Positions 36,407-62,776 of a stretch of DNA of 64,000 nt are shown here, piece after piece. The stretch lies in IMG/VR virus record IMGVR_UViG_3300027730_000005; one strand, 5' to 3'. The stretch is from a virus (lineage: Duplodnaviria; Caudoviricetes). The translations under genes and the position numbers were made by a program. A model generated the notes under the pieces. That model was not told the origin of the DNA and did not search any database. It saw only the letters and a list, made by a program, of their open reading frames with translations. Each line of letters begins with the position of its first letter. Position 1 is the stretch's first letter.

Positions 36407-38002
36407 ATGAGATATTTACTAGACCGATTAGACAGATTAGTATTACCACTTGCCGAAGGTGTGGGCCTGGCCAATCGTAAACCTGGCGAAAAATTCAAAA
36501 ATTCTGTAGGTGACATTATTACCTTCCAAAACTTAGAATTTTATCCTACCTCGGGACGATTCAACACTCCTGACGAATTGCAAGCCGGTGTAGATGCCAT
36601 GTTGGCAGATAAACAAGTTCCAGCTACTCAAATACATTGGGTCAATCAACCAACCAAAAGTGCAGGTGCATTCAGTATTGCTACTTTCGCTGGTGAAGAT
36701 GGTACTCCTTACTACCTAGGCCGATGGGCTGGTGCAACTAGTGCAAATCGTACACAAAACAAATTTGCACACGACGACATTCCTGGTGGTTTTAAATATC
36801 AAAGCCGCGCAGGACAAAAAGAAAACTCTGGACTCAAACCCAGCGAATGGTTGACACAGTTTCAGGACAATACTCCCGACTCTATACTGTCACAAGTTCA
36901 ACAACATTTTGGTGCTGATAGCGATGAAGCTAATGCACTTGAGATCTTTATCAACTCAGATATTCCATGTACAGTGCCGCGTGGCAATATGAATCCCGAT
37001 GCTTTCCGTGATTACTTTGCTGAAGTGCTACAACCTATTGCTCTAGTAACAGGCAAACGAGTAGGCGGCAATGCTGAAGAAGCTGCTGATATATTCTTTG
37101 GTGAAGGTGGTTACAGTGAATGTACCATCAGCTTCAACAGCAATACCATTGGCGGATTATACGACAGCTTGTTGGTCAATCCTGAAGGTAAACAAATCAA
37201 ACTCAGTAGCAAGGGCAAAGACGGCGCTTCGGCGTCGGTCACAAACTTGTTGAAATCTGTAAATGAACTATCAGTCACGCCCAAGGGTCAAAAACTATTG
37301 ACCACACACAAAGATGCCATAGAACTGTTAAACATCATCCAGCAGGACGGTCACTTTGGTGCACCGCTGACTCTGGGTGTAAAATATGGCATCATTACTC
37401 CTGAAGAAGCTGCACAAATTCCACAACTTAAGAAACTTGGACCAACTGACGATATCGTTGGTACAGGCATCCTGAGTCCTCACTTGGAAGAACTGTACAG
37501 TCGACGCAAAAGCAAAGATCCCAAACGTGTGATTCCCCTGGAGCATATGACCGCCAGTATTGCTTACAATGTGGCCAACTACGTGAACAAAAATACTAAC
37601 TTTGGTAAAGCTGCTTCGGAGATCCTAAACAATGCAGCCTTGGTGCAGATGTACACTTATACTTCTCACACTGACCAAACTATCACCATCAGCAAGTCGG
37701 AAGCAAAATACCCTAGCGACACAGTGAATGGTGTATTGTTGGATGCCAGCAAAGTTTATTTTAGCACAGGCGGCAAAGGTAACTTTACTTTTACCATTCT
37801 CAAGAACGGTGCCACAGAGAAAGATGTTAATCCAATAGATGCTGTGGACAGTCTAGATGATCAACCACCTGCTGCTACCAGTGCAGCTGATCTAGATGCC
37901 GAAGCTGAGAAACCCAGATTGGCCGGTCCTGGAGCAAAAGCAGCCAGAACCAGTCGCGAACCCAGAATGGATCGTGCCACCCTGGGTCGCGAACTTCGTT
38001 AA
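36407..38002 (+). CDS. Large late hypothetical protein, possible internal head protein with nuclease-like motif
   Basis: 531 aa; TAAATA 4 nt before ATG; N-terminal L-A-E; LYDS...IKLSSK. Confidence 0.6.
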   Translation: MRYLLDRLDRLVLPLAEGVGLANRKPGEKFKNSVGDIITFQNLEFYPTSGRFNTPDELQAGVDAMLADKQVPATQIHWVNQPTKSAGAFSIATFAGEDGTPYYLGRWAGATSANRTQNKFAHDDIPGGFKYQSRAGQKENSGLKPSEWLTQFQDNTPDSILSQVQQHFGADSDEANALEIFINSDIPCTVPRGNMNPDAFRDYFAEVLQPIALVTGKRVGGNAEEAADIFFGEGGYSECTISFNSNTIGGLYDSLLVNPEGKQIKLSSKGKDGASASVTNLLKSVNELSVTPKGQKLLTTHKDAIELLNIIQQDGHFGAPLTLGVKYGIITPEEAAQIPQLKKLGPTDDIVGTGILSPHLEELYSRRKSKDPKRVIPLEHMTASIAYNVANYVNKNTNFGKAASEILNNAALVQMYTYTSHTDQTITISKSEAKYPSDTVNGVLLDASKVYFSTGGKGNFTFTILKNGATEKDVNPIDAVDSLDDQPPAATSAADLDAEAEKPRLAGPGAKAARTSREPRMDRATLGRELR

Positions 38003-38577
38003 CGTTGAAATTCAGATATTGAATCGCAGATGTTTAGTTTCAATGCATCATGGGCATCTAGCCAAACATCGTGTGGCGGCAATAGTTTGGATTTAATCAC
38101 TGCGTCAGTTAGCCCTGTACAATCTTTGTAGTGCTGAATCATGCGTTTTTGCGTGAGCTCAAATTCACGTATGGTTGCAAACAATTCGTGTGCTTTGCCG
38201 TCACTGCCCCAACTGAACTGATGACTTAAGATACTGGTGTTAGGTGTGAGTGTGCGTCGTCCCGGTGTTCCTGCTAGAAATATCAACAATCCAGCTGATG
38301 CAATCTGTCCCAATCCTACTGTTTTTATACTCAACTTGGAACTACGCATGACGTCGATCAGTGCAAAGGCTGAGCTCATGTCACCGCCTTCACTGCAAAT
38401 ACTTAAAACTAGTTCTTTACGTCTCTGGGTTCTTACAAAGTTTTCATGCAGTATCCATTCAATCGCTGGCTTTACAGTATCAGTGTCAATTGGCCCCATC
38501 AACACAAATATGCCAGCGGCATGCAAGTGTTGTGAGTGCGTCCAAGTGCTGGTATCCGTTGTTGCCGTTGTTGCCAT
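37999..38577 (-). CDS. Second, divergent ClpP-like protease
   Basis: ICSEGGD, GQIASAG, LSHQ, HDVWL (Ser-His-Asp present). Confidence 0.85.
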   Translation of the reverse strand: MATTATTDTSTWTHSQHLHAAGIFVLMGPIDTDTVKPAIEWILHENFVRTQRRKELVLSICSEGGDMSSAFALIDVMRSSKLSIKTVGLGQIASAGLLIFLAGTPGRRTLTPNTSILSHQFSWGSDGKAHELFATIREFELTQKRMIQHYKDCTGLTDAVIKSKLLPPHDVWLDAHDALKLNICDSISEFQR

Positions 38578-38734: not shown

Positions 38735-38953
38735 TTAACCTCCAAAATATTTAATGACCACATCCAAGGCTGCAATAGTTTGAGTATTGCCGACCACATC
38801 TTCAGGATGTAGCCAATAGCCGTCGGGATTAGTATCAGACCTGGGATTCTTTTTCCATTGTGCTAGTTCTTTTTTAAGATACGCACGGCAGTCTTTGAGA
38901 TTGCACAGTGTAATACCGTCAGCAACTTCTGCATCTAATTCAATTTTTTTCAT
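38735..38953 (-). CDS. Hypothetical protein
   Basis: TAATG-coupled. Confidence 0.6.
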   Translation of the reverse strand: MKKIELDAEVADGITLCNLKDCRAYLKKELAQWKKNPRSDTNPDGYWLHPEDVVGNTQTIAALDVVIKYFGG

Positions 38954-39171
38954 TATTCGACTCCGAAATGTTCTCTAATCAAATTGTATGCTTGACCACG
39001 GCTAACCATATCACGCAACATAGGACTTAGTGCTACACTACATTCCCGCACAATCAACTCGGCAAACTTTTCTCTATCAAATTTGGCATAACTGCTGGCA
39101 TAACCTTGTGGACCTACCATTTCTACAATCGATGTAGCCTGTTCAGCAAGTTCTCGAATTCGTTCGTTCAT
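38953..39171 (-). CDS. MNERI/EKFAELIV-family small protein
   Basis: Ends EHFGVE. Confidence 0.7.
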   Translation of the reverse strand: MNERIRELAEQATSIVEMVGPQGYASSYAKFDREKFAELIVRECSVALSPMLRDMVSRGQAYNLIREHFGVE

Positions 39172-39281: not shown

Positions 39282-39482
39282 TTACTCCTTGAAGTGTTCT
39301 ATCACTGCATCAGCAACATCAAGGTAAGTGTTTTGCGGTAGATTGTTGGCCACAACCTGCATGGTTTCCCGAACAATCAACTCGGCGAATTTTTCTTTGT
39401 CAAAAGTTTCAAACCCGCCAACGCATTCAGAAAAGTGACGATCAGTACATTCTTCAATAAGTTCTCGAATTCGTTCGTTCAT
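39282..39482 (-). CDS. MNERI/EKFAELIV-family small protein
   Basis: Ends EHFKE. Confidence 0.7.
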   Translation of the reverse strand: MNERIRELIEECTDRHFSECVGGFETFDKEKFAELIVRETMQVVANNLPQNTYLDVADAVIEHFKE

Positions 39483-39706
39483 TTTGGTTCGTCCAAAGGA
39501 TGCATCACCCCTGGTGATCGTTGGGTGTAAAATTTTTCATCAGGTACTGCAATCACCATAACTTCATCTATAGTATTGCAATATGGGTCCAATGGGTTTG
39601 CGTATTTTACAATAGCACATTGAGTTTCTTGCCCTTGCTCAAATCGATCCAGCTTGCTCAGCAAGGTCAATAGATTGCGCCGAGATAGATAAATTCGTTC
39701 GTTCAT
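39479..39706 (-). CDS. Hypothetical protein sharing only the MNERI start
   Basis: ORF track. Confidence 0.6.
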   Translation of the reverse strand: MNERIYLSRRNLLTLLSKLDRFEQGQETQCAIVKYANPLDPYCNTIDEVMVIAVPDEKFYTQRSPGVMHPLDEPK

Positions 39707-39858
39707 TCTTCAGACCCTTTTTTCACATGTTTAGCACGACGACGATACTGCACCCGACTCTGCTCTGCACGATGACGAAATGGAGTGTCACGAGAGTACA
39801 GTTCCACAGCACGACGGCGCTGTCGAGGTAGTTCAATTTGAAAGCTCAAGGTACGCAT
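39703..39858 (-). CDS. Small Arg-rich protein
   Basis: Start MRTLSFQ, SD GGAG, behind promoter 39892-39920. Confidence 0.6.
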   Translation of the reverse strand: MRTLSFQIELPRQRRRAVELYSRDTPFRHRAEQSRVQYRRRAKHVKKGSEE

Positions 39859-39891: not shown

Positions 39892-39920
39892 ATTATAGCA
39901 CACCCCGGATTAGTGGTCAA
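39892..39920 (-). promoter_or_regulatory. Sigma70-type early promoter
   Basis: TTGACC-N17-TATAAT. Confidence 0.8.
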
Positions 39921-39939: not shown

Positions 39940-40215
39940 TTAGGTATTTTTCTGCGTGTTCTGATATGCTTTCATGATACCTTCGCCAAACTTAGTATAG
40001 TCAAATTTGGAACCTGCTTGAGCCAATTTGATTGATTCCTGCATGATGGTAGTGGATGCATCTGTAGAGGCTTTGAAAGCCTTTTTGGTATAATCAGCTT
40101 GTGTGTCAATGAATTGATTCATTGACTCAGCAATGGTGCTGTTGGTGACAAAAGTCTTAACGAATTGTTTTTTACCATTTTGAATGGTGTCGATCATGGC
40201 GTCTGCTGTAAACAT
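39940..40215 (-). CDS. Phasin-like amphipathic helical protein
   Basis: 91 aa, predicted all-alpha; PhaR-like operator upstream. Confidence 0.5.
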   Translation of the reverse strand: MFTADAMIDTIQNGKKQFVKTFVTNSTIAESMNQFIDTQADYTKKAFKASTDASTTIMQESIKLAQAGSKFDYTKFGEGIMKAYQNTQKNT

Positions 40216-40272
40216 ATGTTTCTCCTAATTTAAGCAAGTAGATTATAGAACCCGCCCTATGCAGCATCCTAT
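40216..40272 (-). promoter_or_regulatory. ROSE-like 5'UTR of the phasin-like gene
   Basis: CUUGCU-UAAAUU-AGGAG-AAACAU-AUG preceded by another hairpin. Confidence 0.55.
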
Positions 40273-40381
40273 ACACTATTATATATGATAAAATGCTGCG
40301 ACCGCACATTTTTAGGCAAAATTCAGAAGAAAAATACGCAGGTATATGTAGTCACTAATAAATAAAACATAGGAGACAATC

Positions 40382-40699
40382 ATGTTCAAGAAAATCGTAG
40401 AATTCTTTACTGGAAAGAAAACCGAAAGCAACTTTGCTCATCCCCTGGATGCAGTTACCGCCCCCAATGTGCCACAAGCACCATACAAGGTTCCTGAACC
40501 TGTTGCCACAAAACCAATTCCGGTTGTTGAGCAGCCTACTACTGTTGAAAAAGTTGTAGCAGAGCCAGCTCAGACTGAAAAGAAACCTGCGGTGAAGAAA
40601 CCTGCTGCGACGAAGCCTGTTGTGAAGAAACCTGCGGTGAAGAAGCCCGCTGTGAAGAAGCCAGCTGCGCCTCGCAAGCCTCGCACCCCCAAACAATAA
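40382..40699 (+). CDS. Lys/Pro/Ala-rich histone H1/AlgP-like protein
   Basis: KKPA repeats at the C-terminus; SD AGGAG. Confidence 0.6.
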   Translation: MFKKIVEFFTGKKTESNFAHPLDAVTAPNVPQAPYKVPEPVATKPIPVVEQPTTVEKVVAEPAQTEKKPAVKKPAATKPVVKKPAVKKPAVKKPAAPRKPRTPKQ

Positions 40700-40753: not shown

Positions 40754-41194
40754 ATGAAAATAAAAATAATAACAATAGCCTTGCTTGTAGTAACAATACA
40801 GGTCAGGGCTGCCGAACTGGTACATCAGTTCAATTCATCTGCATTCAACGGTGTTGGATACAGCAGTCATGTTCTCACAATTGAACAACTAGAATCACAA
40901 CGTCGAAAAGCCTTGGCCGATGCTGCCAAATCCGCTGCTGACCAAGCCATTAGAGATGCCAAGAATACCAATCTGGCCAAATTCTTAGTCAATGTTGAAA
41001 GTCGTATCTATGCCCAACTCTCAAAACAGTTAGCCGATGCTATGTTTTCTGAAGGCGGTGAATCTGGCCAACTGAATTTTCAAGGTACCAACATCTCCTG
41101 GCTGAAAACTGCCACCGAAGTCACACTAACCATTATGGAAAATTCAGGCAATCGCACTGAAATCACTGTACCCATCGGGAGTTTTGCATTTTGA
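40754..41194 (+). CDS. csgF: Curli assembly CsgF-like protein
   Basis: Signal peptide, then ELVHQFNSSAFNG, aligning with the CsgF N-terminus (FQFRNPNFGG). Confidence 0.7.
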   Translation: MKIKIITIALLVVTIQVRAAELVHQFNSSAFNGVGYSSHVLTIEQLESQRRKALADAAKSAADQAIRDAKNTNLAKFLVNVESRIYAQLSKQLADAMFSEGGESGQLNFQGTNISWLKTATEVTLTIMENSGNRTEITVPIGSFAF

Positions 41195-42006
41195 TCCGAA
41201 CTGTGCTATCACTGTTGTTGGCTACTGTACTCACTGGTTGTGCCGCAGTGCTGTGGGACACTGAACGTGAAGAGCCTCGTGTGATCCCCAGGGTAAGGCT
41301 GTTGGATTCTATACCTGCATTGGATGGCCCTCCTATGCCTATTGCTGTGTATGGATTTTTAGACAAAACTGGTCAAATGAAATCCAATGATCGACTAGCC
41401 CTATTTTCCAAAGCAGTAACCCAAGGTGCCGAAGTGTTTCTGATCAAGGCTCTGCAAGACACAGGCCGTTGGTTTACTGTAGTGGAACGAGTGGGGTTAG
41501 ACAATCTCATCAAAGAACGCCAACTCATACGTAATCAACGCGAAGTGTATGAAGGCAAAGATGCCAAACCCTTGCGGCCCATGCTGGTGGCTGGTATTAT
41601 GATTGAAGGTGGCATTGTGGGTTACGATACCAATTTACGTTCAGGTGGCGCCGGAGCCAGAATCATGGGAATTGGCAATTCCGTGCAATATCGAGTGGAC
41701 GAAGTGGTTGTGGCCTTGAGGTTTGTGTCGGTGCATACAGGCGAAGTGTTAATCAATACTGCTGTGAGTAAGACCATTTACAGCACTGCTCAAAATGCAG
41801 GCATGCTGAGGTTTGTGGATGTGGGCACACGAGCTGTGGAATTAGAAGCTGGTGCTGCACTCAACGAACCTACAACCTACGCTGTTCGAGTGGCTATTGA
41901 ACAGGCTGTGTATGAAACTATCATCACAGGTGAACGTCGAGGACTATGGCGTTTTAAAACTACAATGAGCGTGTCTGGGGAAAACTCGGGCATAGATAAA
42001 AAATGA
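41191..42006 (+). CDS. csgG: Curli secretion channel lipoprotein CsgG
   Basis: Lipobox LTGC; IAVYGFLDKTGQ.K, FSKAVTQGA, WFTVVER.GLDNL.KERQLIR. Confidence 0.9.
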   Translation: MIRTVLSLLLATVLTGCAAVLWDTEREEPRVIPRVRLLDSIPALDGPPMPIAVYGFLDKTGQMKSNDRLALFSKAVTQGAEVFLIKALQDTGRWFTVVERVGLDNLIKERQLIRNQREVYEGKDAKPLRPMLVAGIMIEGGIVGYDTNLRSGGAGARIMGIGNSVQYRVDEVVVALRFVSVHTGEVLINTAVSKTIYSTAQNAGMLRFVDVGTRAVELEAGAALNEPTTYAVRVAIEQAVYETIITGERRGLWRFKTTMSVSGENSGIDKK

Positions 42007-42602
42007 TAACAAAAACTCTCAAAAGTGTAATATTATTGGCAGTTATGCTGTGGTCCACAGCATGGGCCAATGAACTGTATATGGAACAAAGTGATGACTC
42101 GTCCACCATAACCATCACACAGGACGGTGCCAGCAATGAAATTGGCACACAACTGTCTCCGGTGTTTATTGGTGGAGGCTCAAATACTGTAAATATTGAA
42201 CAAATTGGTGCCGGCAACCAACTACAGTTTACAGTAAATGGTGCCACCACTGCTATGACCATTGAACAACACGGTAGCAACAATATCGGTACAGTGACTT
42301 GCGGTACCACTGCCAATGCCAGTTGCAGTGGCAGTACCATTTGGCAATTTATCACTGGTGATGACAACAACATCAGTCAGCTTCTAGGTGCCGGCGGAAA
42401 TCATACCAGCAAGATCACTGTGACTGGGGACACCAACACAGTGAGTCATACCAGTACCAACACAGGCGCTGTGAGTATGCAATACCTAGTAACTGGGAAC
42501 AGTAATTCAATTTCAGTGACCACTGCAGGTACCACAGCCAAGACTCTCAATGCAACTACTACTGGCAATAGCAATACTGTTACTATCGTTCAGACCAACT
42601 GA
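42003..42602 (+). CDS. Curlin-like (CsgA/CsgB) repeat protein
   Basis: Signal peptide AWA; about seven Q/T-x-G-x-x-N repeats at roughly 22-aa spacing. Confidence 0.7.
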   Translation: MITKTLKSVILLAVMLWSTAWANELYMEQSDDSSTITITQDGASNEIGTQLSPVFIGGGSNTVNIEQIGAGNQLQFTVNGATTAMTIEQHGSNNIGTVTCGTTANASCSGSTIWQFITGDDNNISQLLGAGGNHTSKITVTGDTNTVSHTSTNTGAVSMQYLVTGNSNSISVTTAGTTAKTLNATTTGNSNTVTIVQTN

Positions 42603-43623
42603 TGCAGTAGCTTCTGTCGGAACAATTACTTCCTTGACAGGACCCACTGAAATAGTAAGAAAGCGACAAAGCATGCCTAGTCAGGCTGGCTCGGCCATTG
42701 AGATGAATGACACAGTGGTCACTGCTCGCGCTCGAGCAGAACTGACTTTTGTAGACCGGACTCAGGTCAAAATCACTGAACAGTCAAAACTGATCATAGA
42801 TGACTTTGTGTATGATTCCAATCAAGGTACAGGTAAACTGGCATTGAAAATGGCGCTGGGTACTGCTAGATATGCGTCAGGACAGATTGCCAAGAACTCA
42901 CCGCAAAATGTAGCTGTGCAAACTCCTACGGCCACAGTGGCTGTGCGTGGCACAGATTTCTCAATGACTGTGGACGAACTGGGTCGCAGTATGATTGTAT
43001 TACTACCCAGTTGCGATCAAAACAGTTGTGTCACCGGAGTGATTGAAGTGTTCAACGAAGCTGGTCGTGTGATGCTTACCCAGGCCTATCAAGCCACACT
43101 GGTCACAAGTTTGAGTACTCCGCCCAGTCAACCTACAATGATCACTGTGGATATCAATAACATAAACAATTTGCTGATCATTAGCCCACCTGTTGAACTG
43201 CGCAGAGAAGAATTTCAAAATAGCCGCCAAGAACAAGAATTCAATCTGCTAAATGTAGATTTCTTACGATACGATGAGCTGGAAAAAAACTATCTAGACA
43301 ACAGATTTTTGGATGTTGATTTTTTAGAAAACACGTTTTTGAGTAATGAATTGGATGCAGTTGGAATAAATGTCTGGGCAGCAACTGCTTATTTGTTGGA
43401 TAATGGCATGATGCCAGGATATGATCCCGCTAGTTTATTGCGATACACTGTGGATGATCAAGATCGCTTGTTTCTCATACGCAAAGTCAACAATCACTAC
43501 ACTGAACTCATTGTGAGCAAAGAAGCCAATCTAGTAGTAGATATTCGGCAAGACGGCATTCCTGTATGGCAGAGGGTAAATCGCGGAGGATCTACCACAG
43601 TTACAATTGTGCAAAGGCAATAA
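42550..43623 (+). CDS. Exported FecR-domain protein
   Basis: Signal peptide; D.V.T...A.L.F.D.T...I...S.L.ID.F, L.M..GTARY, V.TPTATVAVRGTDF. Confidence 0.8.
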   Translation: MQLLLAIAILLLSFRPTDAVASVGTITSLTGPTEIVRKRQSMPSQAGSAIEMNDTVVTARARAELTFVDRTQVKITEQSKLIIDDFVYDSNQGTGKLALKMALGTARYASGQIAKNSPQNVAVQTPTATVAVRGTDFSMTVDELGRSMIVLLPSCDQNSCVTGVIEVFNEAGRVMLTQAYQATLVTSLSTPPSQPTMITVDINNINNLLIISPPVELRREEFQNSRQEQEFNLLNVDFLRYDELEKNYLDNRFLDVDFLENTFLSNELDAVGINVWAATAYLLDNGMMPGYDPASLLRYTVDDQDRLFLIRKVNNHYTELIVSKEANLVVDIRQDGIPVWQRVNRGGSTTVTIVQRQ

Positions 43624-62264: not shown

Positions 62265-62711
62265 TTACACAGTGTATGTGATTGCAATGCTCTTCGGCTT
62301 GGCTGATTCAGGAACTTTACGCTCCAAGTATACAGTCAAGATACCATCTTTGATGGCTGCACCATTGACTTCCACGTGTTCGGCAAGCGGAAATGTTTGC
62401 TTGAACTCACGGCTAGAAATACCACGATGTAGATATTCATGCTCAACGCTGTCATTGCGCTTTTTATTACCAGTTACGGTAAGCAATCGCTTGTCCAAAC
62501 TGATATCAATTTCGCCTTCAGAAAATCCTGCCACTGCGACTTCAATTGTGACTGTGTCGTCACCAGTTTTAATCACATTGTGTGGAGGATAGTTGGTTGA
62601 GCTTTGAGTTTGTGTTACACGCATCAGATCGTCAAACAGATTGTCAAAACCAATTCCAAATTTGTTGAATGCGGGGATATCGAAACTACGAAGGTGTAGA
62701 GTTTTTGTCAT
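62265..62711 (-). CDS. Small heat shock protein Hsp20 (IbpA-like)
   Basis: NYPPHNVI, IEVAVAGF, YLHRGIS.R.F...F.LAEHVEV..A..KDGIL. Confidence 0.93.
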   Translation of the reverse strand: MTKTLHLRSFDIPAFNKFGIGFDNLFDDLMRVTQTQSSTNYPPHNVIKTGDDTVTIEVAVAGFSEGEIDISLDKRLLTVTGNKKRNDSVEHEYLHRGISSREFKQTFPLAEHVEVNGAAIKDGILTVYLERKVPESAKPKSIAITYTV

Positions 62712-62776
62712 GTTGTTTCTCCTTTAATAAGCAAGTATGACTGAATAATGTAGACCCCACCATGGGCATCTACAAA
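62712..62776 (-). promoter_or_regulatory. ROSE-like RNA thermometer 5'UTR of hsp20
   Basis: CUUGCUU-AUUA-AAGGAG with bulged G, plus upstream hairpin GUAGAUGCCC/GGGGUCUAC. Confidence 0.75.

What the first reader, a model, noticed from the sequence alone, without database searches (positions are those of the whole stretch)
39940..40310. Phasin-like gene with a PhaR-type operator and a second ROSE-like element
Seen: upstream of the 91-aa helical ORF lie an imperfect inverted repeat AATGCTGCGACCGCACATT (40292-40310), ATGCAGCAT (40259-40267), a TATAAT, and a UTR ending UACUUGCUUAAAUUAGGAGAAACAUAUG. That ending is almost the same as the hsp20 UTR (UACUUGCUUAUUAAAGGAGAAACAACAUG). Known: PhaR binds TGC-rich CTGC-N3/4-GCAG-like sites upstream of phasin genes. 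Inference: the phage senses host PHB granules via PhaR and temperature via ROSE, then deploys a phasin to mobilise carbon stores or to act as a chaperone. A ROSE element on a non-HSP phage gene would be unusual.
Basis: partly seen in the sequence, partly recalled or inferred. Interest (0 to 1): 0.7.

Follow-up and report, generated by a model that had tools for sequence, protein, structure and literature searches.

The report
Phage gene behind PhaR operator, ROSE leader
A giant lake-water phage drives a small, highly conserved helical protein from a control region made of two bacterial-type switches, the DNA site used by the PHB carbon-store sensor PhaR and a heat-shock-type RNA leader, so the phage probably reads its host's carbon reserve (and perhaps temperature), although the protein is not a provable phasin.

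Summary

**RNA leader.** The leader of the 91-aa gene (39940-40215, minus strand) is a conserved two-hairpin ROSE-like RNA. Its best Rfam hit is ROSE_3, below threshold. Hairpin 1 shows strong covariation. A model trained only on this leader finds just one other site in each related 320-350 kb phage genome: the hsp20 leader.

**Operator.** The inverted repeat lies over the -35 region. In relatives it reads ATGYTGC-N3-GCARCAT, then about 9 nt, then TAYAAT. That matches published PhaR/PhbF sites and the layout in front of Polynucleobacter phasin genes. The same palindrome also lies just upstream of Polynucleobacter phaR. It is essentially unique in each phage genome. The window carries a conserved variant with one half-site shifted by one base.

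**Protein.** It is a phage-specific amphipathic three-helix protein. Phasin homology is not established.

PhaR binding, heat sensing and granule binding are all untested. This scan has already reached similar readings on related phage genomes.

The parts
40293..40309 (-). PhaR-type operator, variant form ATGTGCGGTCGCAGCAT. It has one consensus half-site (GCAGCAT). In the other half the TGC triplet is shifted by one base. It overlaps the -35 position.
   Evidence: The same variant occurs in L004, L007 (two copies), L014, L028, L030 and L062. Canonical ATGYTGC-N3-GCARCAT sits at the same place in most relatives.
40278..40283 (-). -10 hexamer TATAAT, 9 nt downstream of the operator. The start of transcription is inferred at about 40271-40274.
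   Evidence: The spacer to a TAYAAT hexamer is 9 +/- 1 nt in 28 of 35 distinct relatives. L008 and L026 keep the box and -10 but have a short leader without hairpins.
40244..40273 (-). ROSE-like leader, hairpin 1.
   Evidence: Six of seven outer pairs show changes on both sides. 92.5% of cells are paired, against 35-49% in slid controls.
40222..40238 (-). ROSE-like hairpin 2. CUUGCU pairs with the Shine-Dalgarno AGGAG (40222-40226) around a bulged G.
   Evidence: The U(U/C)GCU motif is present in nearly all relatives.
39940..40215 (-). 91-aa ORF encoding a phage-specific amphipathic three-helix protein.
   Evidence: 934 close homologues, all unnamed. 185 cluster representatives (... collected). 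AF2 model pLDDT 87 with helices 4-22, 26-69 and 73-89. Hydrophobic moments 0.37-0.51.
62706..62775 (-). Sister ROSE-like leader of the phage hsp20 gene (ORF 62265-62711).
   Evidence: Rfam ROSE_3 at 22.2 bits. Found by model R1, which was trained only on 91-aa-gene leaders (29.2 bits, E 7e-4).

Best explanation
The 5' region of the 91-aa gene combines two host-type cis-elements.

1. A sigma-70-type promoter has its -35 region covered by a PhaR/PhbF-type palindrome, laid out as at host phasin promoters. Host PhaR would repress the gene until PHB granules titrate PhaR away. This step is inferred. No phage PhaR was found.

2. The roughly 60-nt leader folds into a two-hairpin ROSE-like element, the same family as the phage and host hsp20 leaders. 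Its second hairpin pairs U(U/C)GCU with the Shine-Dalgarno sequence around a bulged G. Translation would therefore be damped and possibly released by warmth. This step is also inferred.

The product is a phage-specific, very conserved amphipathic three-helix protein. Its most likely role is to coat PHB granules or other hydrophobic surfaces alongside Hsp20, in a phasin-like way. I put that role at about 0.4-0.5. It is inferred from regulation and physical chemistry, not from homology.
For: **Operator.**
- Relatives carry ATGYTGC-N3-GCARCAT, then about 9 nt, then TAYAAT.
- This contains the footprinted H. seropedicae PhbF motif TG[N]TGC[N]3GCAA (PMC3206438).
- It fits the R. eutropha motif YTKNTGCRNYGCANMAR with 3 or fewer mismatches in 25 of 35 loci (PMC12849132).
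- It shares the YGCRNYGCR core validated by EMSA in S. meliloti (PMC12542648).
- The same box and -10 layout precedes Polynucleobacter phasin genes. The box also lies just upstream of the phaR start. It precedes 28 of 29 Burkholderiales phasin genes sampled.
- In Polynucleobacter genomes G010 and G013 the box occurs 12 times against 1 for the control pattern. The perfect sites lie at phaP1.
- Four of five near-complete phage genomes (320-353 kb) hold one or two copies at 1 or fewer mismatches, one of them at this gene. The fifth has a more degenerate copy there.

**Leader.**
- The best Rfam hit is ROSE_3, aligned over the full model.
- Hairpin 1 shows covariation.
- Model R1 finds only this gene and hsp20 in five phage genomes.
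- R1's best hit in Polynucleobacter is a host hsp20 leader.

**Modularity.** L008 and L026 keep the box without hairpins. L039-L048 keep the hairpins without the box.

**Protein.** It is amphipathic and helical. Seven of 87 distant family members give subthreshold Phasin_2 hits. Its ESM-feature neighbours include clusters carrying Phasin_2 and PHB_acc.
Against: - The window's own box is a shifted variant: 5 mismatches to the R. eutropha motif and 3 to the phage consensus.
- The box also occurs at non-PHB genes in Polynucleobacter.
- The host assignment rests on MAG binning and motif likeness only. Two Haliscomenobacter MAG contigs also carry the gene.
- The ROSE_3 score of 25 bits is well below the gathering score of 43.
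- The window protein matches no phasin HMM.
- The weak Phasin_2 and hhalign alignments disagree in register. They vanish against a diverse phasin alignment.
- The phage genomes encode no PHB depolymerase.
Confidence: 0.6

Rival explanations
1. The wiring is as described, but the protein is not a granule coat. The phage uses the PhaR box only as a read-out of host carbon status. It times a small protein that targets another conserved host or phage partner.
For: - Sequence conservation is very high (GKKQFVKTFV and KFDYxKFGEGIMKAY are nearly invariant). That is unlike fast-evolving phasins and suggests a specific partner.
- There is no phasin HMM match.
- PhaR regulons reach beyond PHB genes (PMC12542648).
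Against: - All three helices are amphipathic.
- Phasin_2 is the only Pfam family recurring among distant members (7 of 87).
- The gene shares its leader with Hsp20, another binder of hydrophobic surfaces.
Confidence: 0.25
2. The leader is not a thermometer. It is a constitutive translational damper or an mRNA-stabilising 5' structure, or it responds to a protein or to stress rather than heat. It was inherited together with the hsp20-type ribosome-binding site.
For: - In-silico melting shows little temperature dependence.
- Lake hosts rarely experience 37-42 degrees C.
- The Rfam score is below threshold.
Against: - The U(U/C)GCU motif, bulged G and Shine-Dalgarno arrangement that define ROSE-like elements are conserved.
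- The same leader sits on host and phage sHSP genes.
- Nearest-neighbour models ignore the non-canonical pairs of ROSE.
Confidence: 0.3
3. The palindrome is bound by a phage regulator, or is a phage promoter element. Its likeness to PhaR boxes is coincidental.
For: - The window copy departs from the PhaR consensus.
- A second upstream palindrome, TTAGTGAC-N4-GTCACTAA, in relatives shows that other regulators act here.
Against: - The motif is essentially unique in each phage genome, so it is not a general promoter element.
- The extended motif and its spacing to the -10 are those of host phasin promoters, and the same box also lies before host phaR.
- The asymmetric variant occurs in both orientations, as expected for a site bound by a dimeric protein.
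Confidence: 0.08

Closest known systems
PhaR/PhbF-phaP repression circuit of PHB-storing Burkholderiales (R. eutropha H16 PhaR, PMC12849132; H. seropedicae PhbF, PMC3206438)
   Same: A TG-N-TGC-N3-GCAA-type palindrome overlaps the -35/-10 region of a sigma-70-type promoter in front of a small amphipathic helical protein gene. The identical layout is found at Polynucleobacter phaP genes.
   Different: - The gene is in a phage that encodes no PhaR.
- The product is not a recognisable Phasin_2 protein.
- There is a single box rather than two or three.
- The window's copy has one half-site displaced by 1 nt.
- An RNA leader is added that host phaP genes lack.
Short two-hairpin ROSE-like RNA thermometers of ibpA/hsp20 genes (Rfam ROSE_3, RF02523)
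   Same: - Two hairpins precede the start codon.
- Hairpin 1 has a GAUGCY...GGGUC core.
- Hairpin 2 pairs U(U/C)GCU with AGGAG around a bulged G.
- The match covers the full Rfam model.
   Different: - It scores 25 bits against a gathering score of 43.
- It sits on a non-HSP gene.
- It lies behind a sigma-70-type, PhaR-gated promoter instead of a sigma-32 promoter.
- It is phage-borne. The phage RNA thermometers listed in PMC11182007 are lambda cIII and fourU types.
Phasins (Pfam Phasin_2 PF09361; PhaP of Aeromonas hydrophila, PDB 5IP0)
   Same: A small amphipathic all-helical protein under a PhaR-type operator. The model superposes on 5IP0 at Z 7.2, rmsd 2.1 A over 70 residues.
   Different: - No HMM match for the window protein.
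- Weak matches among relatives are inconsistent in register.
- The fold match is tied with many unrelated helical hairpins.
- The sequence is far more conserved than phasins usually are.

Membership tests
ROSE-like RNA thermometer (Rfam ROSE_3) | Lies in the 5'UTR, with 2-4 hairpins, the last holding the Shine-Dalgarno sequence | tested here: met
   There are two hairpins, and the Shine-Dalgarno sequence (40222-40226) lies in hairpin 2.
ROSE-like RNA thermometer (Rfam ROSE_3) | U(U/C)GCU opposite the Shine-Dalgarno sequence, with a bulged G | tested here: met
   CU(U/C)-G-CU pairs with AGGAG. U-G alternates with C-G at one pair (13 sequences each).
ROSE-like RNA thermometer (Rfam ROSE_3) | Score at or above the Rfam gathering threshold (43 bits) | tested here: not met
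   25.0 bits for this leader and 22.2 bits for the hsp20 leader. Nothing reached gathering.
ROSE-like RNA thermometer (Rfam ROSE_3) | Structure conserved through compensatory changes | tested here: met
   44 cells have changes on both sides, against 8 or fewer in slid controls. 0 of 500 shuffles reach the observed score. This applies to hairpin 1 only. Hairpin 2 is invariant apart from the U/C position.
ROSE-like RNA thermometer (Rfam ROSE_3) | Temperature-dependent opening and translation | not testable with these tools
   The ViennaRNA ensemble gives no clear melting. Reporter or probing experiments are needed.
PhaR/PhbF operator | TGC-N3-GCA palindrome matching published motifs | tested here: inconclusive
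   Relatives: 25 of 35 match YTKNTGCRNYGCANMAR with 3 or fewer mismatches. Many contain TG-N-TGC-N3-GCAA exactly. The window's copy has 5 mismatches and its TGC and GCA are 4 nt apart.
PhaR/PhbF operator | Overlaps the -35/-10 region of the regulated promoter | tested here: met
   The box ends 9 nt before TATAAT.
PhaR/PhbF operator | The same site occurs at phasin and phaR genes of the presumed host lineage | tested here: met
PhaR/PhbF operator | Bound by PhaR and released by PHB | not testable with these tools
   No experiment exists. No phage PhaR was found.
Phasin (Pfam Phasin_2 / NCBIfam phasin models) | HMM match above the curated cut-off | tested here: not met
   No hit at E 0.1 or below in Pfam or at E 1 or below in NCBIfam. 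No six-frame hit at E 10 or below.
Phasin (Pfam Phasin_2 / NCBIfam phasin models) | Remote homology by profile comparison | tested here: inconclusive
   - 7 of 87 distant members hit Phasin_2 below the cut-off, best E 1.2e-4, with differing registers.
- hhalign gives P 1e-3 against six Polynucleobacter type-2 phasins and beats 40 of 40 column shuffles.
- Probability is about 1% against diverse phasin alignments.
Phasin (Pfam Phasin_2 / NCBIfam phasin models) | Small amphipathic alpha-helical protein with a fold like PhaP | tested here: inconclusive
   Amphipathic helices are confirmed. 5IP0 scores Z 7.2, but is tied with many unrelated helical proteins.
Phasin (Pfam Phasin_2 / NCBIfam phasin models) | Binds PHA granules | not testable with these tools
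   Needs localisation or binding assays.

The most novel reading that the evidence does not exclude
The phage has assembled an AND-type switch from two host cis-elements: a phasin promoter-operator read by host PhaR, and an sHSP-type RNA thermometer. With it, the phage makes a granule-coating protein only in PHB-loaded (and warm or stressed) cells. It then uses that protein, together with its Hsp20, to open the host's PHB store as carbon and energy for replication. This would be a virus reading and exploiting a bacterial storage polymer through the host's own sensor.
Probability: 0.3. Interest if true: 0.8.

Novelty: new variant of a known kind. Interest (0 to 1): 0.62.

Why it matters
PhaR operators and ROSE-like leaders are textbook bacterial elements. 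I found no paper describing either in a phage. My searches on phage, phasin and auxiliary metabolic genes returned nothing relevant. The phage thermometers listed in PMC11182007 are lambda cIII and fourU types.

If host PhaR binds this site, these abundant freshwater jumbo phages sense their host's PHB reserve through the host's own sensor. Hundreds of contigs carry the gene. That would be a new kind of host-state sensing. It would also point to a PHB-storing Burkholderiales host such as Polynucleobacter.

The question is directly testable with EMSA and reporter fusions in Cupriavidus necator.

Tried and rejected
- **Proximal TATAAT (40242-40247) as the promoter: rejected.** It is the 3' arm of hairpin 1, which covaries with the 5' arm. 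Loci without hairpins keep only the distal -10.
- **ATGCAGCAT as a second PhaR site: rejected.** It is an RNA stem, and the hsp20 leader has the equivalent GAUGCC.
- **Palindrome as a general phage promoter motif: rejected.** It is essentially unique in each genome.
- **PHROGs, the PDB sequence profile, Foldseek against PDB and the Atlas shape search** gave nothing specific.
- **Blastn of the region against the phage collection** gave one 64-bp hit only.
- **Cluster names:** all hypothetical.
- **Rfam ROSE_3 in five Polynucleobacter genomes:** no match at E 1 or below, although my own model found a host hsp20 leader.
- **PhaR and PHB depolymerase families in five phage genomes:** none found.
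- **ViennaRNA melting curves.** Shine-Dalgarno pairing probability was 0.2-0.5, with almost no temperature dependence and competing folds into the ORF. This is uninformative either way.
- **RNA evidence.** One 151-nt, depth-2 contig of a relative in a metatranscriptome covers 40106-40254. That is too little to show transcription or a 5' end.
- **Terminator scan:** no canonical terminator after the ORF.
- **Complex prediction:** not attempted, because no binding claim depends on it.

Full report
**Observation**

The region was read on the minus strand.
- the imperfect inverted repeat at 40292-40310;
- ATGCAGCAT at 40259-40267;
- TATAAT hexamers at 40278-40283 and 40242-40247;
- a leader ending TACTTGCTTAAATTAGGAGAAACATATG before a 91-aa ORF (39940-40215).

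The hsp20 gene is 62265-62711 (Pfam HSP20 3e-16). Its leader ends in a near-identical way. The shared pattern CTTGCT-N3-10-AGGAG occurs only at these two genes in the window. The chance expectation is 0.22, and 0 of 100 shuffles reach 2. It also occurs only there in the whole 153,873-bp IMG/VR record, which CheckV rates 44% complete. Earlier notes of this scan describe the genome as an uncultured T4-like jumbo lake phage.

**The leader is a conserved ROSE-like RNA**

- Nothing in the window reaches an Rfam gathering score.
- In a permissive scan, the best hit of both leaders is ROSE_3 (RF02523), aligned over the full model. The scores are 25.0 bits (40210-40273) and 22.2 bits (62706-62775), against a threshold of 43.
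- I fetched 46 homologous loci from viral contigs. Nearly all show the same order: palindrome, -10, hairpin 1, then AC(U/C)(U/C)GCUU-loop-AGGAGAAA-AUG.
- RNAalifold on 27 distinct leaders predicts two hairpins. In the second, CU(U/C)-G-CU pairs with AGGAG around a bulged G, the ROSE signature.
- Pair counting gives 92.5% paired cells, against 35-49% when the partners are slid. There are 44 double-change cells, against 8 or fewer in the controls. None of 500 shuffles reaches the covariation score. Almost all of this comes from hairpin 1.
- A covariance model built only from these leaders (R1) finds exactly two significant sites in each of five phage genomes. One is the 91-aa gene and the other is the hsp20 leader.
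- 48 of 53 distinct phage hsp20 upstream regions carry the hairpin-2 motif.
- In Polynucleobacter genome G010, R1's best hit (36.9 bits) is the leader of a host IbpA-like gene behind a sigma-32-like promoter. That host protein is 41% identical to the phage Hsp20.
- Whether the RNA senses temperature cannot be settled here. Ensemble folding gave no clear melting.

**The inverted repeat is a PhaR-type operator**

- In relatives the repeat reads ATGYTGC-N3-GCARCAT. It ends 9 +/- 1 nt before a TAYAAT hexamer in 28 of 35 distinct loci.
- It is not a general phage promoter element. Four of five near-complete 320-353 kb relatives hold one or two copies at 1 or fewer mismatches, one of them at this gene. 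The extra copy, in G001, lies before a 55-aa ORF. The fifth relative has only a more degenerate copy at this gene.
- The family's only hits in 185,579 species genomes are four MAG contigs: two in Polynucleobacter bins and two in a Haliscomenobacter bin. These are probably binned phage DNA.
- Polynucleobacter genomes each have one to six Phasin_2 matches.
- Their upstream regions carry the same palindrome with the same spacing to the -10. One example is ATGTTGCAACGCAACAT, 8 nt, TATAAT. A second phasin type carries two or three copies.
- The box also lies just upstream of the start of phaR, which follows phaB. This fits autoregulation.
- It lies upstream of 28 of 29 phasin genes from other Burkholderiales.
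- Genome-wide in Polynucleobacter it is enriched, at 12 against 1 for the control pattern. The perfect sites lie at phaP1. Some sites lie at unrelated genes.
- Published work agrees:
  - H. seropedicae PhbF protects TG[N]TGC[N]3GCAA in a footprint (PMC3206438).
  - R. eutropha PhaR sites fit YTKNTGCRNYGCANMAR, next to the -35 and -10 boxes (PMC12849132).
  - S. meliloti PhaR binds YGCRNYGCR palindromes in EMSA (PMC12542648).
- 25 of 35 phage loci fit the R. eutropha motif within that paper's three-mismatch limit.
- The window's own copy, ATGTGCGGTCGCAGCAT, is a variant. It has one good half-site, and the other TGC is displaced by one base. The variant recurs in six other loci and in both orientations, so it is probably functional but may bind more weakly.
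- The five phage genomes searched (the window's partial record and four relatives 92-100% complete) encode no PhaR and no PHB depolymerase.

**Promoter assignment**

The distal TATAAT (40278-40283) is the conserved -10. The proximal one is the 3' arm of hairpin 1. That arm covaries with its partner, which would make no sense if transcription began downstream of it. Loci L008 and L026 keep the box and -10 but have a short leader without hairpins. The shorter 75-aa relatives (L039-L048) keep a ROSE-like leader without the box. The two elements are therefore separable modules.

**The protein**

- The family is large: 934 close members and 185 cluster representatives at 50% identity. It is phage-specific and unnamed. 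It is very conserved, with GKKQFVKTFV and KFDYxKFGEGIMKAY nearly invariant.
- AlphaFold gives three helices at pLDDT 87. All three are strongly amphipathic.
- No Pfam, NCBIfam or PHROG family matches the window protein.
- Hints of a phasin relationship exist but do not add up:
  - 7 of 87 distant members hit Phasin_2 below the cut-off, in inconsistent registers.
  - ESM-feature neighbours include a cluster in which 13% of members carry Phasin_2, and a PHB_acc cluster.
  - hhalign reaches P 1e-3 against six type-2 Polynucleobacter phasins and beats 40 of 40 column shuffles. It drops to about 1% probability against diverse phasin alignments.
  - PhaP 5IP0 superposes at Z 7.2, tied with many unrelated helical proteins.
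- 'Phasin-like' is therefore a functional guess from the wiring and physical chemistry, not a family assignment.

**Mechanism proposed**

- Host PhaR occludes the -35 until PHB granules titrate it away. This is inferred from the established PhaR model.
- The transcript then carries a ROSE-like leader that limits ribosome access, possibly in a temperature-dependent way. This is also inferred.
- The product may coat granules or other hydrophobic surfaces alongside Hsp20. This is speculative.
- From general knowledge, sHSPs can bind PHB granules in recombinant E. coli, and phasins show chaperone-like activity. That makes a shared leader on both genes plausible.

**Novelty**

Both elements are known kinds. 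Their presence in a phage, their fusion on one gene and the orphan product are new, as far as my literature searches show. This scan has already reported similar readings on related phage genomes. I treated those notes as leads and tested the claims here myself.

Noticed in passing
window 40382-40699 (+): A divergently transcribed 105-aa gene. It has the N-terminus MFKKIVEFFTGKK, an APYKV motif and a Lys/Pro/Ala-rich tail (Pfam HC2 25 bits, below the cut-off). Homologues sit next to the 91-aa gene in about half of the relatives. The tail recalls the DNA-binding tails of PhaF and PhaM, but such tails are common.
   Followed up: partly
window 40754-43623 (+): A phage-borne curli-type secretion cluster: CsgF (1e-11), CsgG (5e-50), a curlin-repeat protein and a further 357-aa ORF.
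   Followed up: no
window 40351-40358 (-); L018-L038 about 30-40 nt upstream of the PhaR-type box: Many relatives have a second conserved palindrome, TTAGTGAC-N4-GTCACTAA, between the divergent genes. The window keeps only a half-site. No good copy exists elsewhere in the record.
   Followed up: partly
L060 1501-1517 (complete relative G001): A second PhaR-type box (ATGTTGCGTCGCAATAT), followed by the same AAATAA, precedes a 55-aa ORF (L060 1283-1450, minus). This suggests a two-promoter regulon in some relatives.
   Followed up: partly
L039-L048: A shorter 75-aa branch of the family lacks the C-terminal KFDY...GEGIMKAY helix. It keeps a hairpin plus the CUCGCUU...AGGAG leader, but has no PhaR-type box.
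   Followed up: partly
window 39892-39920 (-): A near-consensus sigma-70-type promoter (TTGACC, 17 nt, TG-n-TATAAT) lies just after the 91-aa ORF. It sits inside a hairpin-like stretch ending in a T-run, ahead of an Arg-rich small ORF starting at 39857.
   Followed up: no
window 38953-39171 and 39282-39482 (-): Two small paralogous ORFs both start MNERIRELxE and share FDKEKFAELIVRE. A third ORF (39479-39706) also starts MNERI.
   Followed up: no
window 37999-38577 (-): A ClpP-like protease gene (Pfam CLP_protease 3e-26) lies close to the chaperone-type genes.
   Followed up: no
L249 1501-1573 (Polynucleobacter genome G010): A host IbpA-like gene has a two-hairpin ROSE-like leader behind a sigma-32-like promoter. 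The Rfam ROSE_3 search did not report it, but the phage-trained model did.
   Followed up: partly
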